NCBI GenBank assembly: GCA_002296975.1
Contig: DBIS01000240.1
Span: 1-39,612, forward strand
Reading direction: 5' to 3'
Origin: Deltaproteobacteria bacterium UBA796
Lineage (GTDB): Bacteria > Myxococcota_A > UBA796
Length of the DNA stretch: 39,612 bases
Of the stretch, positions 9,495 to 11,456 are shown one piece after another. Position 1 is the stretch's first letter. Each line of letters begins with the position of its first letter. Below the pieces are notes generated by a model. It ran no database searches, had not been told where the DNA came from, and saw only the letters and a program-made list of their open reading frames with translations. A program made the position numbers and the translations under genes.

Positions 9495-11456
9495 ATGAAC
9501 ACACCCACACCCTATTCCGCTAAATCTATCCAAGTCCTGACTGGACTCGAGCCGGTCCGGATGCGACCCGCCATGTTTATTGGGTCTACCGGTGTGGACG
9601 GGCTTCATCACTGCTTGACCGAGCTCATCGACAACGCCATCGACGAAGTGTTGGCCTGTACTGCCACAAGATTGGCGGTCACGATTCATGCTGACGAAAG
9701 CTGCACCGTTGAAGACAATGGACGAGGCATCCCGACTGAGGAATTTGGCGACACCGGAAAATCTGCGCTTGAGGTGGTGATGACCACCCTGCACGCTGGC
9801 GGAAAGTTCGGGTCGGGTGCTTATAAAGTTTCTGGGGGCCTTCACGGGGTGGGCTTGTCTTGCGTCAACGCTTTGTCGGACTTTTTGACCGTCGATGTTT
9901 GGCGCGACAACATGCATCACCAACAGCGTTTTGAGCGAGGCACCCCCGTCACGAAGATGAGCAAAACACCGGGCGGCTCAGCCACCGGTACCCGCATCCT
10001 GTTTAAGCCAGATGCCAGTATTTTCAGTGCCGACGCGCGATGGATACCCAGCCGAATCGGGCGGCGCTTACGAGAACTCGCCTACCTCAACCCCGGGCTG
10101 GTGATTCGCTTTATCGATGAACGCGAAGGTGTCGACGACGAGTACAGCTATGAGGGTGGCTTGTCTGCCTTTGTGCGCTCCCTCAACAAAACACGCCTGC
10201 CCATCCAAGCCCAGCCGATTTCGCTCCAGGTTGAGGCCGACGCGCTCAATATTCAAGTCGCGATGCAGTGGACCAGCTTGTACGCAGAGGAAATAAAATC
10301 CTTTGTGAACACCATCGCCACACCGGATGGTGGTACCCATGTGATCGGTTTGCAACGGGCCATCGCCGATGCTGTTCGACTGGTTGCCGCCGAACGGCCA
10401 GAGTTCGGCACCCGCCACAAACAACTGCGCCCCAACGACACCCGCGAAGGGCTTACCGTCGTGTTGAGCATGATGATGCACGACCCGGAATTTCAAGGCC
10501 AAACCAAGGGCCGGCTGATGAACGACACGGTGGATGCCACTGTTCACAGCGCCATTCGCGATGCCCTGGTGGGCTGGATGCGCGCCAACCCAGAGCAGGC
10601 TGGCAACATCATCAACAAGGCACTCACAGCCGCACGCGCCCGCCTCGCGGCCAACTTGGCTCGCACAGACGCGGAGCATGTCTCCACCCCCGGTGCCATC
10701 GATTTGGACACCTACCGCAAACAATTCGGCGTTCGCTCCTTGAACTGGCACGACTCTGCTGTGTGGCTGACCGATGAGCAACTCTTGGCCAAGCACGCCG
10801 AGATGGCCGATGTGGCCCCCGATGCCAAGCTGCTCGATGTCTGCTGCGGCTCTGGCGTGGTCGGTCACGCCTTTCGCCATAAGGTCGCCCATATGACCGG
10901 CCTCGACATCACCCCTGAGATGGTGGCCCTGGCTCGCACCCGTCTCGATGAGGTGGTCTTGGGCAACGTCTTCGATATGCCCTTCGAGGCCGACGCATTC
11001 GACATCGTGTCCAACCGTGAAGTGCTGCACCTCTTTCCGCACCCCGAGCGCATGCTCAGTGAGGTCTTTCGGGTGCTCAAGCCCGGTGGACAGTTTGTCT
11101 TCGGCCAAATCGTGCCCTTCAGCGCCGTTGACGCCCCTTGGATGAACCGAATCTTCCGCAAAAAACAACCCCTTTTGCACCATATGTTCTTGCACGAAGA
11201 CCTTTTGGCCTTGCTCAAAGAAGCGGGCTTTGAAAACATCCAGACCACCGAGATCAACGTGTGGGAAGACATCGACATTTGGATCGACACCGTCGAAACC
11301 AGCCGTCGGCATCGCCACGAGATAAAAGAACACTTCTACAACGCACCAAAAGAGGTGCGCGATGTTCATCCCTTTGAGATCAAGGACGACGGCACTGTCA
11401 TGGACCTATGGCGCTGGGTCATCTACGCCTCGAACAAGCCCGGAAAACAGTCATGA
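9495..11456 (+). CDS. GyrB-like GHKL ATPase + transducer module fused to a class I SAM-dependent methyltransferase (no Toprim domain)
   Basis: The first ~400 aa align by eye with E. coli GyrB residues 1 to ~400: SIQVLTGLEPVRMRPAMFIG, GLHHCLTELIDNAIDE, VEDNGRGIP, LHAGGKF..YKVSGGLHGVG, FQGQTKGRL. No EGDSAGG/Toprim follows. Instead there is MTase motif I (LLDVCCGSG) and RVLKPGGQFVF. ATG 9495 gives a GyrB-like N-terminal arm. The stop overlaps the next ATG (ATGA). Confidence 0.85.
   Translation: MNTPTPYSAKSIQVLTGLEPVRMRPAMFIGSTGVDGLHHCLTELIDNAIDEVLACTATRLAVTIHADESCTVEDNGRGIPTEEFGDTGKSALEVVMTTLHAGGKFGSGAYKVSGGLHGVGLSCVNALSDFLTVDVWRDNMHHQQRFERGTPVTKMSKTPGGSATGTRILFKPDASIFSADARWIPSRIGRRLRELAYLNPGLVIRFIDEREGVDDEYSYEGGLSAFVRSLNKTRLPIQAQPISLQVEADALNIQVAMQWTSLYAEEIKSFVNTIATPDGGTHVIGLQRAIADAVRLVAAERPEFGTRHKQLRPNDTREGLTVVLSMMMHDPEFQGQTKGRLMNDTVDATVHSAIRDALVGWMRANPEQAGNIINKALTAARARLAANLARTDAEHVSTPGAIDLDTYRKQFGVRSLNWHDSAVWLTDEQLLAKHAEMADVAPDAKLLDVCCGSGVVGHAFRHKVAHMTGLDITPEMVALARTRLDEVVLGNVFDMPFEADAFDIVSNREVLHLFPHPERMLSEVFRVLKPGGQFVFGQIVPFSAVDAPWMNRIFRKKQPLLHHMFLHEDLLALLKEAGFENIQTTEINVWEDIDIWIDTVETSRRHRHEIKEHFYNAPKEVRDVHPFEIKDDGTVMDLWRWVIYASNKPGKQS

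What the first reader, a model, noticed from the sequence alone, without database searches (positions are those of the whole stretch)
9495..11456. GyrB ATPase+transducer module with the Toprim/GyrA-binding half replaced by a SAM methyltransferase
Seen in sequence: residues 1 to ~400 align by eye with the 43-kDa N-terminal fragment of E. coli GyrB. The N-terminal dimerisation arm is present. Equivalents of H38/E42/N46 (GLHHCLTELIDN), D73/R76/G77 (EDNGRG), K103/Y109/K110 and the glycine lid (LHAGGKF..YKVSGGLHGVG), and the transducer QTK loop (FQGQTKGRL) are all present. Similarity stops where Toprim should begin; there is no EGDSAGG. A complete class I methyltransferase follows in the same frame (LLDVCCGSG ... 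RVLKPGGQFVF). Established knowledge: this GyrB fragment is an ATP-operated dimerising clamp and the binding site of aminocoumarin-type inhibitors. Functional GyrB/ParE always carries Toprim plus the GyrA/ParC-binding tail. Inference: the protein cannot be a topoisomerase subunit. It could be an ATP-gated clamp that presents a substrate to the methyltransferase. Alternatively it could be a target-mimic that binds and methylates a GyrB-ATP-site ligand, analogous to the extra resistant target copies found in antibiotic gene clusters. I do not know of a characterised protein with this architecture, but I cannot search.
Basis: partly seen in the sequence, partly recalled or inferred. Interest (0 to 1): 0.82.

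Follow-up and report, generated by a model that had tools for sequence, protein, structure and literature searches.

The report
Gyrase-ATPase/methyltransferase fusion of sulfamate pathway
This gene really does fuse the ATP-driven clamp half of DNA gyrase B to a methyltransferase, but the fusion is already known as NucP/AcmP, a protein genetically required to build the sulfamate group of the antibiotics nucleocidin and ascamycin; here it sits in the same gene cassette in an uncultured, probably myxobacterial, genome.

Summary
ORF 9495-11456 (+), 653 aa, is one uninterrupted frame. It holds the GyrB GHKL ATPase and transducer (residues 1-390), a short hinge, and a class I SAM methyltransferase. 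There is no Toprim domain and no GyrA-binding tail.

It is not an orphan oddity. It belongs to a compact, monophyletic family: at least 69 protein clusters, and up to 412 matches among 185,579 species genomes. The family includes the single copy in the nucleocidin producer Streptomyces calvus T3018 (48.5% identity, full length).

[quoted passage not shown] Deleting nucP abolishes sulfamylation. AcmP is the ascamycin equivalent.

The window carries the same cassette in an overlapping operon: B12-radical-SAM NucJ (66% identity), NucP, NucL, NucK and NucO, with NucN nearby. The pseudo-rubrerythrin NucQ is missing.

The ATP-binding, hydrolysis and dimerisation-arm residues and the SAM motifs are invariant across the family. 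The protein is therefore most likely an active ATP-operated dimer coupled to a cryptic methylation step in sulfamoyl assembly. The reaction itself is unknown.

The target-mimic (resistance) reading is not supported. Verdict: a new member of a known, biochemically unsolved kind.

The parts
9495..11456 (+). NucP/AcmP-family gene: GyrB 43-kDa module fused to a class I SAM methyltransferase (653 aa plus stop)
   Evidence: 48.5% identity over 98% of its length to the single homologue in S. calvus T3018 locus L028.
9495..10157 (+). GHKL ATPase domain (residues 1-221) with the N-terminal dimerisation arm and the ATP lid
   Evidence: Pfam HATPase_c. Window residues Y7, I12, E43, N47, D74, R77, G78, K104, Y110, G115/H117/G118/G120, R137 and T166 are conserved family-wide.
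10158..10664 (+). Transducer domain (residues 222-390) with the QTK loop (Q336, K338)
   Evidence: Pfam DNA_gyraseB 3e-43. Q and K are invariant in 66/66 members. The AF2 model matches 1EI1 with TM 0.92 and rmsd 2.8 A.
10665..10784 (+). End of the long C-terminal helix, flexible hinge (pLDDT<50 at residues 392-399) and conserved pre-methyltransferase helix (YxxQFGIRSxNWHxS)
   Evidence: This is the point where canonical GyrB continues into Toprim.
10785..11453 (+). Class I SAM methyltransferase domain (residues 431-653), a paralogue of the adjacent NucL-like gene
   Evidence: Pfam Methyltransf_11 9e-22. Motif I LDVCCGSGVVG, GLDITPEM and RVLKPGG are invariant. 32% identity to the window NucL-like protein, E 1e-36. 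The nearest structures are YcgJ and BH2331.
7780..9453 (+). NucJ-like B12-binding radical SAM enzyme (ORF opens at 7726)
   Evidence: Pfam. 66% identity to the S. calvus L028 homologue. Present in 54 of 60 loci.
11453..12214 (+). NucL-like SAM methyltransferase; its ATG overlaps the stop codon of the fusion gene (ATGA)
   Evidence: (54% identity to L028).
12240..13256 (+). NucK-like PAPS-type sulfotransferase
   Evidence: Pfam Sulfotransfer_3 2e-30. 47% identity to L028. Start coordinate.
13253..14482 (+). NucO-like protein with weak sulfotransferase similarity; its ATG overlaps the NucK stop codon
   Evidence: (44% identity to L028).
18628..19578 (-). NucN-like amidinotransferase/DDAH-fold protein
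   Evidence: Pfam ADI. NCBIfam dimethylargininase 2e-19. 42% identity to L028.
6207..7673 (+). Alkaline-phosphatase-superfamily 'sulfatase', a possible NucG counterpart. It has an N-terminal membrane helix and Thr at the formylglycine position.
   Evidence: Only 25% identity to S. calvus NucG, so orthology is uncertain.
4966..6210 (+). Class I/II aminotransferase at the head of the operon. It is not part of the published cassette. It also occurs in the closest relative, L009.
14490..18579 (-). EamA transporter-SPFH fusion plus two SPFH paralogues. The trio recurs beside the cassette in related Myxococcota-type loci and is a candidate exporter.

Best explanation
The gene is a member of the NucP/AcmP family and a biosynthetic component of the conserved 'sulfamylation sub-cluster' (NucJ, K, L, N, O, P, usually Q, often G). 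In Streptomyces this sub-cluster builds the 5'-O-sulfamoyl group of nucleocidin, ascamycin and 5'-O-sulfamoyladenosine from PAPS-derived sulfate.

Proposed mechanism (inferred):
- The protein works as a homodimer. ATP binding closes the GHKL domains through the exchanged N-terminal arms, as in GyrB.
- The QTK-loop lysine senses the gamma-phosphate.
- The resulting movement of the transducer and its long C-terminal helix passes through a short flexible hinge to the two methyltransferase domains.
- SAM-dependent methylation of a pathway intermediate or carrier is thereby gated or driven, and ATP hydrolysis resets the cycle.

The known end products carry no methyl group, yet two methyltransferase modules and a B12-radical-SAM enzyme (a family that includes many methylases) are all essential. 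Any methylation must therefore be cryptic: a transient activating or protecting step.

Shown: the architecture, family membership, cassette context, residue conservation, and the published knockout phenotype of the homologue. Inferred: dimer gating, cryptic methylation, and that this cassette also makes a sulfamoyl group.
For: Architecture.

Family:
- At least 69 same-architecture protein clusters.
- Up to 412 matches among 185,579 species genomes.
- The GyrB modules of 66 members form one clade against 49 canonical GyrB sequences.

Identity with NucP/AcmP:
- S. calvus T3018 has one homologue, in locus L028, inside the gene order N-G-regulator-J-K-L-Q-P-O.
- Window proteins match the L028 proteins at 66% (J), 48.5% (P), 54% (L), 47% (K), 44% (O) and 42% (N) identity.
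- The acm gene table lists AcmP as 658 aa, 'DNA topoisomerase II', beside AcmQ rubrerythrin, AcmO, AcmN, AcmL, AcmK and AcmJ.

Co-occurrence within 10 kb in 60 loci with at least 6 kb on both sides: J 54, Q 55, L 53, K 52, O 55, N 47.

Evidence for an active enzyme:
- The hydrolysis residues E42, Q335 and K337, the Mg ligand N46, the adenine ligand D73, the lid, and the arm residues Y5/I10 are invariant or nearly so.
- The SAM motifs are invariant.

Evidence for physical coupling:
- The Q stop codon overlaps the P start in nearly all loci.
- In the window, P/L and K/O overlap by ATGA.
- A natural fusion of NucJ with a NucL-type methyltransferase (P0274) sits in an otherwise complete cassette.
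Against: - No biochemical activity has been reported for any family member in the literature I could search.
- The window lacks a NucQ homologue (best HMM E-value 0.013) and a recognisable NucI.
- Its NucG counterpart is only 25% identical, so this cassette may make something other than a sulfamate.
- Inter-domain geometry is not predicted with confidence (pTM 0.60, hinge pLDDT<50). No dimer model could be run.
- H38 and K110, which contact ATP in E. coli GyrB, are relaxed in the family.
- No PAPS-synthesis or nucleoside-specific genes lie in the window.
Confidence: 0.7

Rival explanations
1. The GHKL site is a chemical activator, not a conformational switch. It would transfer phosphate or AMP from ATP onto a sulfate or sulfamate intermediate, giving a sulfamoyl-phosphate or sulfamoyl-adenylate analogous to carbamoyl phosphate or APS. 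The fused methyltransferase would act on the same intermediate.
For: Esterifying or aminating a sulfuryl group needs activation, and the pathway's S-N bond-forming step is unexplained. The GHKL superfamily includes true kinases (established knowledge). The catalytic residues are invariant.
Against: The family keeps the complete hydrolytic topoisomerase apparatus: the N-terminal strap and the transducer QTK loop, which closes the site over the gamma-phosphate. GHKL kinases lack both. No acceptor site is evident. No family-specific residues are newly fixed in the GyrB module.
Confidence: 0.17
2. It is a self-resistance decoy. The GyrB-like pocket would sequester the adenosine-sulfamate product, or a gyrase-ATPase inhibitor, and the methyltransferase would inactivate it.
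For: The ATP pocket, including the aminocoumarin-contact residues D73, R136 and T165, is intact. Antibiotic clusters often carry extra target copies. StrR/NovG-type regulators flank the actinomycete cassettes.
Against: The nucP knockout loses sulfamylation while still making the unsulfamylated metabolite, the same phenotype as the other eight cassette genes. Hydrolysis-specific residues, which are not needed for binding, are invariant. Known products hijack aminoacyl-tRNA synthetases, not gyrase (abstracts). P is translationally coupled to biosynthetic partners. No methylated sulfamoyl nucleoside was among the nucleocidin-related metabolites named in the passages I read (only parts of the papers were read).
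Confidence: 0.06
3. It is an ATP-operated DNA clamp that delivers a methyltransferase to DNA, for epigenetic marking or defence.
For: The 43-kDa fragment captures DNA in gyrase (established knowledge). The methyltransferase region hits the PADLOC model mad2 at 4e-19.
Against: The mad2 hit covers only the generic Rossmann methyltransferase core, and the neighbouring NucL-like protein gives the same hit. The nearest sequence and structure relatives are small-molecule methyltransferases. The context is a metabolic cassette with no restriction or defence partners. Several transducer positions that are invariant in canonical GyrB are free to vary here.
Confidence: 0.03
4. It is an artefact: a gyrB remnant joined to a methyltransferase gene by a frameshift or assembly error.
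For: None beyond the unusual architecture.
Against: The frame is continuous. The same fusion, at 45-85% identity and ~620-680 aa, occurs in at least 69 protein clusters and in many isolate genomes. The hinge and pre-methyltransferase helix are conserved.
Confidence: 0.01

Closest known systems
NucP (nucleocidin cluster, Streptomyces calvus / S. virens) and AcmP (ascamycin cluster, Streptomyces sp. JCM9888)
   Same: Same two-module architecture and length (AcmP 658 aa; L028 homologue 670 aa; window 653 aa). 48.5% identity over the full length to the S. calvus homologue. Same neighbours: NucJ, K, L, N and O homologues.
   Different: The host is a non-actinomycete, probably Myxococcota. There is no NucQ pseudo-rubrerythrin, no recognisable NucI, and only a distant NucG-like gene. 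An aminotransferase and an EamA-SPFH transporter set are added. No nucleoside-tailoring, fluorination or halogenase genes lie nearby.
DNA gyrase subunit B / topoisomerase IV ParE, N-terminal 43-kDa ATPase fragment (e.g. PDB 1EI1)
   Same: GHKL fold plus transducer at 42% identity. All ATP-binding, hydrolysis and dimerisation residues are present. The predicted structure superposes at TM 0.92.
   Different: No Toprim domain, no GyrA/ParC-binding tail, and a methyltransferase in their place. It evolves faster than canonical GyrB: within-family identity is 49% against 65% for canonical sequences. It forms its own clade.
Aminocoumarin-resistant extra GyrB copies (gyrB-R of the novobiocin, clorobiocin and coumermycin clusters)
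   Same: A GyrB-derived gene inside a secondary-metabolite cluster with a StrR/NovG-type regulator nearby in actinomycetes.
   Different: By my knowledge, those genes are full-length, functional gyrase B subunits that replace the sensitive enzyme. This protein lacks half of GyrB, and its homologue is needed for biosynthesis.
YcgJ (1XXL) / BH2331 (1VL5) family of Methyltransf_11 proteins, and NucL
   Same: The methyltransferase module has the same fold including the C-terminal cap (TM 0.83-0.85). It is a paralogue of the adjacent NucL-like gene.
   Different: The two PDB entries are deposited without an assigned function ('unknown conserved protein', 'putative methyltransferase'), so they give no clue to the substrate. 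The fusion's methyltransferase has its own invariant set (NWHxS, REVxH, KKKQPL, WExxDxWxDxxET, WRW).

Membership tests
DNA gyrase B / ParE (type IIA topoisomerase B subunit) | GHKL ATPase domain with E42, N46, D73 and the glycine-rich lid | tested here: met
DNA gyrase B / ParE (type IIA topoisomerase B subunit) | Transducer domain with the QTK loop | tested here: met
DNA gyrase B / ParE (type IIA topoisomerase B subunit) | Toprim domain (EGDSAGG, DxD) | tested here: not met
   No PF01751 at E<=0.1. No motif found.
DNA gyrase B / ParE (type IIA topoisomerase B subunit) | C-terminal GyrA/ParC-binding domain (PF00986) and a full-length score above the NCBIfam cut-off | tested here: not met
   No PF00986. 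~450 bits against cut-offs of 740-882, with only profile positions 1-~395 matched.
NucP/AcmP family (sulfamylation sub-cluster) | GyrB 43-kDa module plus C-terminal Methyltransf_11 in one ~650-670 aa protein | tested here: met
NucP/AcmP family (sulfamylation sub-cluster) | Full-length sequence similarity to the homologue of a proven producer | tested here: met
   48.5% identity at 98% coverage to S. calvus T3018 L028. Falls in the monophyletic clade.
NucP/AcmP family (sulfamylation sub-cluster) | Clustered with NucJ, NucK, NucL, NucO and NucN homologues | tested here: met
NucP/AcmP family (sulfamylation sub-cluster) | Preceded by a translationally coupled pseudo-rubrerythrin (NucQ) | tested here: not met
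   No homologue in the window. Also absent from the nearest relatives L007, L008, L009, L011 and L039.
NucP/AcmP family (sulfamylation sub-cluster) | NucG and NucI 'sulfatase' partners | tested here: inconclusive
   Two AP-superfamily genes at 25-27% identity to NucG. NucI was not identified, and no verified NucI query sequence was available.
NucP/AcmP family (sulfamylation sub-cluster) | Required for formation of a sulfamoyl group | not testable with these tools
   Shown only for S. calvus nucP by knockout.
Class I SAM-dependent methyltransferase | Motif I (D/ExGxGxG), the acidic post-I residue, motifs II/III and a Rossmann-like fold | tested here: met
   LDVCCGSG, GLDITPEM and RVLKPGG are invariant. 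Fold confirmed.
Resistant-target GyrB copy in an antibiotic cluster | A complete, catalytically competent GyrB able to partner GyrA | tested here: not met
Resistant-target GyrB copy in an antibiotic cluster | The cluster product inhibits gyrase | not tested
   The product of this cassette is unknown. Products of the homologous clusters are reported to hijack aminoacyl-tRNA synthetases (abstracts).

The most novel reading that the evidence does not exclude
The NucQ-less cassette in this myxobacterial-type genome has its own aminotransferase and an EamA-SPFH export set. It could make a sulfamoyl (S-N) metabolite that is not an adenosine sulfamate. More generally, NucP-type proteins could be the first case of the type II topoisomerase ATP clamp being recruited to drive small-molecule chemistry, namely ATP-gated cryptic methylation during S-N bond assembly. 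Such cassettes occur in hundreds of species across many phyla (up to 412 matches; only the best 80, plus L001-L008, were checked for the GyrB module), so sulfamate-type natural products would be far more widespread than the handful known from actinomycetes.
Probability: 0.3. Interest if true: 0.8.

Novelty: new member of a known kind. Interest (0 to 1): 0.45.

Why it matters
How nature forms the S-N bond of sulfamate antibiotics is unsolved. Eleven genes are genetically required and none has a demonstrated reaction. The NucP-type protein is the strangest of them: a topoisomerase ATPase with no DNA-cleavage half, joined to a methyltransferase, in a pathway whose products carry no methyl group.

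This analysis adds comparative constraints for biochemists:
- The ATPase and dimerisation residues are under strict selection.
- The cassette core (J, P, L, K, O, N) exists without NucQ in one clade.
- NucJ and a NucL-type methyltransferase occur fused.
- The cassette is present in ~0.2% of species genomes, well outside the Actinomycetota.

These points suggest smaller, more tractable versions for reconstitution. They also suggest that sulfamoyl nucleosides, which are potent hijackers of aminoacyl-tRNA synthetases, or related compounds, may be made by many uncultured bacteria.

Tried and rejected
- Literature searches combining GyrB, methyltransferase, sulfotransferase, radical SAM and self-resistance terms found nothing relevant. 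The link came from recalling that sulfatase and sulfotransferase genes mark the ascamycin and nucleocidin clusters (onward).
- Four further searches for post-2021 enzymology of sulfamate assembly found no biochemical study of NucP or AcmP.
- PADLOC gave only a generic methyltransferase hit (mad2), so a defence reading was rejected.
- Foldseek with the whole model returned only GyrB/ParE fragments. No solved structure has both modules.
- The methyltransferase-only model matched entries deposited without an assigned function (YcgJ, BH2331), so it gave no substrate clue.
- By eye, R136 seemed to be replaced by Gln. The MAFFT alignment shows R136 is conserved, and the idea was dropped.
- A NucQ homologue was sought in all six frames of the window with a family HMM and was not found.
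- Ten recurrent unannotated neighbour ORF clusters were scanned. Nine had no Pfam hit and are probably shadow ORFs in high-GC DNA. One is an AMP-binding enzyme.
- The sulfatase-methyltransferase fusion P0295 looked like a Rosetta-stone link, but it lies in a polysaccharide cluster and was discarded.
- A mention of nucleocidin in a Pseudoalteromonas paper proved irrelevant.
- Whether the same genome has a canonical gyrB could not be checked, because only this 39.6-kb contig is available.
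Full report
OBSERVATION

The window has one continuous ORF on the + strand from 9369 to 11456. The biologically sensible start is ATG 9495 (MNTPTPYSAK...). It gives 653 aa and matches the starts of the 653-aa homologues P0002 and P0123.

Pfam finds HATPase_c (35-156), DNA_gyraseB (222-390, E 3e-43) and Methyltransf_11 (447-536, E 9e-22). It finds no Toprim and no GyrB C-terminal domain. NCBIfam gyrB and parE models align only over their first ~395 positions and score ~450 bits, far below their cut-offs of 740-882. PDB sequence matches are the 43-kDa ATPase fragments of GyrB and ParE (E 2e-93). 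A regex for Toprim signatures finds nothing.

IS THE FUSION REAL AND CONSERVED?

A search of 5.8 billion proteins returned at least 69 clusters with the same three-domain composition. They are 45-85% identical and 620-680 aa long. The next-best hits are ordinary ~800-aa GyrB proteins that match only the N-terminal 57%.

A profile of the hinge plus methyltransferase region (A1) was scanned over one genome per species of 185,579 species and gave 412 matches. I inspected the best 80. By record title, 36 are Actinomycetota, including Streptomyces calvus T3018, S. sulfonofaciens, S. griseus NCTC13033, Micromonospora, Nonomuraea and Actinomadura. The other 44 are MAGs labelled Myxococcota, Deltaproteobacteria, Desulfobulbaceae, Pyrinomonadaceae, Elusimicrobia, Bdellovibrionales, Gemmatimonadota and others.

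In the 50%-identity representative library the family collapses to about three full-length representatives, so it is compact. A neighbour-joining tree of the GyrB modules puts all 66 fusion proteins in one clade, separate from 49 canonical GyrB sequences. Mean identity within the fusion family is 49%, against 65% among the canonical sequences. This suggests a single origin followed by faster evolution.

WHAT IT BELONGS TO

Six loci carrying homologues in Streptomyces, Actinomadura, Desulfobacteraceae and metagenomes show the same neighbours:
- a ~558-aa B12-binding radical SAM enzyme;
- a small rubrerythrin-like protein whose stop codon overlaps the start of the fusion gene;
- a ~250-aa Methyltransf_11 protein;
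- a sulfotransferase;
- a ~450-aa protein with weak sulfotransferase similarity;
- an amidinotransferase/DDAH-fold protein;
- a 'sulfatase'.

This gene set is the one listed for the ascamycin cluster: acmG sulfatase, acmJ 557-aa Fe-S oxidoreductase, acmK sulfotransferase, acmL methyltransferase, acmN amidinotransferase, acmO 444-aa hypothetical, acmP 658-aa 'DNA topoisomerase II' and acmQ rubrerythrin (Zhao et al. 2014, PMC4257720).

For nucleocidin, Wojnowska et al. 2023 (PMC10946740) deleted 26 genes. They found that nucI, G, J, K, L, N, O, Q and P, plus the PAPS genes nucA and nucW, are each required for sulfamylation. [quoted passage not shown] They state that the roles of these enzymes, and the origin of the amine, remain unknown. 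A 2021 review likewise calls the S-N bond-forming mechanism unknown (PMC9113183).

Direct comparison confirms the link. S. calvus T3018 has one family member (locus L028) in the order N, G, regulator, J, K, L, Q, P, O. Window proteins are 66% (J), 48.5% (P, 98% coverage), 54% (L), 47% (K), 44% (O) and 42% (N) identical to the L028 proteins.

Sixty loci have at least 6 kb on both sides of the fusion gene. Within 10 kb, J occurs in 54, Q in 55, L in 53, K in 52, O in 55, N in 47 and a G-like gene in 39.

THE WINDOW'S VERSION

The genes form a tight + strand operon:

| Gene | Coordinates |
|---|---|
| aminotransferase | 4966-6210 |
| AP-superfamily 'sulfatase' | 6207-7673 |
| NucJ-like | 7780-9453 |
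| fusion (NucP-like) | 9495-11456 |
| NucL-like | 11453-12214 |
| NucK-like | 12240-13256 |
| NucO-like | 13253-14482 |

ATGA start/stop overlaps occur at the P/L and K/O junctions. The NucN-like gene (18628-19578) lies on the other strand next to a second sulfatase-like gene.

No NucQ homologue exists anywhere in the window (family HMM, best E 0.013). The nearest relatives (L007, L008, L009, L011, L039) also lack it, so this is a Q-less sub-clade. NucI was not recognised.

The best named relatives of the window's GpsA, and of a related fusion protein, are Myxococcota MAGs. The contig is therefore probably from an uncultured member of the Myxococcota.

STATE OF THE TWO MODULES

I aligned 66 family members, 49 canonical GyrB sequences and E. 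coli GyrB. Its register agrees with the 1EI1 coordinates.

Invariant or nearly so in the fusion family:
- the catalytic base E42;
- the Mg ligand N46;
- E50, D73, R76, G77 and P79;
- K103 and Y109;
- lid residues G114, H116, G117 and G119;
- R136 and T165;
- Q335 and K337 of the QTK loop;
- the dimerisation-arm residues Y5 and I10.

Only H38 (H/R/Q) and K110 are relaxed. In all, 61 positions are invariant in both groups. About 27 positions that are invariant in canonical GyrB are free in the fusion family. These include lid positions 110-113, several transducer positions (N272, R291, N294, R316) and the basic residues at the end of the C-terminal helix. No position has become newly fixed.

The methyltransferase half is even more conserved, at 70% mean column identity. 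Its SAM motifs are intact and it carries a distinctive set of invariant aromatic and basic residues. It is a paralogue of NucL (32% identity).

AlphaFold2 gives a confident model (pLDDT 89). Low confidence is confined to the N-terminal arm, the ATP lid and a hinge at residues 392-399. The pTM of 0.60 means the relative orientation of the two modules is undetermined. Residues 1-390 superpose on E. coli GyrB43 (1EI1) at TM 0.92 and rmsd 2.8 A. No PDB entry covers both modules. The methyltransferase alone is closest to YcgJ and BH2331, which are deposited without an assigned function, and then to small-molecule methyltransferases.

MECHANISM

Shown:
- The protein is an intact GyrB-type ATPase joined by a flexible hinge to an intact SAM methyltransferase.
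- It is embedded in, and translationally coupled to, the sulfamylation cassette.
- Its Streptomyces homologue is genetically required for sulfamoyl assembly.

Inferred:
- Residues needed for hydrolysis and for arm-mediated dimer closure are under strict selection, not merely those needed for nucleotide binding. The module therefore most likely still works as an ATP-operated dimerising switch.
- The methyltransferase replaces Toprim at the end of the long helix that transmits the transducer movement. ATP binding and hydrolysis would then bring together or re-orient the two methyltransferase domains, or a bound partner such as NucQ or NucL.
- Nucleocidin, dealanylascamycin and 5'-O-sulfamoyladenosine contain no methyl group. 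Yet NucL, the NucP methyltransferase and the B12-radical-SAM NucJ are all essential. The methylation is therefore probably cryptic.
- A natural fusion of NucJ with a NucL-type methyltransferase (P0274) sits inside an otherwise complete cassette, with N and O upstream and K, Q and P downstream. This supports the idea that these methyltransferase modules work docked to partner enzymes. One pairs with the radical SAM enzyme and one with the ATPase.

The main rival is that the GHKL site chemically activates a sulfuryl or sulfamoyl intermediate. I rate it lower because the full hydrolytic closure apparatus is retained.

The resistance-decoy, DNA-methylation and artefact readings are disfavoured by the knockout phenotype, the conservation pattern, the type of methyltransferase, the context and the breadth of the family.

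COMPARISON AND NOVELTY

The protein fails membership of GyrB/ParE, because Toprim, the tail and the score cut-offs were tested and not met.

It meets the architectural, sequence and context criteria of the NucP/AcmP family. The exceptions are the missing NucQ partner and the uncertain NucG and NucI partners.

The architecture and its genetic role are published, so this is a new member of a known kind. What is new here:
- the phylogenetic breadth (up to 412 species, most of the inspected non-actinomycete ones being MAGs);
- the Q-less variant with an added aminotransferase and an EamA-SPFH set;
- the residue-level evidence that the ATPase is functional;
- the J-L fusion.

Interest is moderate. 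The protein remains mechanistically enigmatic and bears on the open question of biological S-N bond formation.

Noticed in passing
window 6207-7673 (+), 19579-21240 (-); L028 2156-3325 (-): Both window 'sulfatases' and S. calvus NucG have Thr where true sulfatases have the Cys/Ser that becomes formylglycine (TLPST..TG, TLASL..TG, TPISH..TG). They resemble Thr-nucleophile alkaline-phosphatase-superfamily transferases more than sulfatases. The window copy at 6207 also has an N-terminal membrane helix.
   Followed up: partly
L089 7800-10184 and L090 7801-10185 (protein P0274): A natural fusion of a NucJ-type B12-radical-SAM enzyme with a NucL-type methyltransferase (794 aa). It sits inside a complete cassette with N, O, K, Q and P. 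This is a Rosetta-stone hint that J and L act together.
   Followed up: partly
window 14490-18579 (-): An EamA transporter fused to an SPFH/HflK-like domain (791 aa), followed by two SPFH paralogues. The same trio lies next to the cassette in L007 and L008, and BLAST gave an EamA-SPFH hit in L014, L033 and L064. It is a possible export module. The 16-18 kb bin also shows an unusually high AT skew (0.317), which I did not explain.
   Followed up: partly
nearly all Q-containing loci, e.g. L006 9561-10004 / 10001-11980: The stop codon of the pseudo-rubrerythrin gene overlaps the start of the fusion gene by a few bases (typically 4-8) in phyla from Actinomycetota to Desulfobacterota. This suggests a Q-P complex. 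The window's clade has lost Q.
   Followed up: yes
L066 10374-11825 and 16 other loci: An AMP-binding (adenylate-forming) enzyme recurs within 10 kb of the cassette in 17 loci. Adenylate-forming enzymes are the classic targets and partners of acyl-sulfamoyladenosines.
   Followed up: no
L003 8369-9334 (-): A class Ib aminoacyl-tRNA synthetase gene (tRNA-synt_1b, 321 aa) directly abuts the cassette in a Desulfobacteraceae MAG. It could be a resistant target copy for a sulfamoyl nucleoside, or a coincidence.
   Followed up: no
window 31479-32954 (-): A second B12-binding radical SAM enzyme (BchE/HpnJ-like, ~184 bits, below the family cut-offs). It is only 26% identical to the NucJ-like gene, and its neighbours have no Pfam hits.
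   Followed up: no
window 1232-4344 (-): A CbbQ/NorQ-type AAA+ ATPase (3532-4344) followed by a 766-aa protein with a C-terminal VWA domain. This is a MoxR/NorQ-NorD-like pair of unknown client. Two FHA-domain proteins lie at 3622-4959 (+) and 22409-23140 (-). The 3622-4959 ORF overlaps the AAA+ gene on the opposite strand, so its 5' part is probably not coding.
   Followed up: no
P0272, P0295, P0393; L091: Methyltransferases of the NucL/NucP subfamily also occur as a tandem methyltransferase-methyltransferase protein and fused to AP-superfamily/sulfatase domains. The one context checked (P0295, L091) is a polysaccharide-type cluster, not the sulfamylation cassette.
   Followed up: partly
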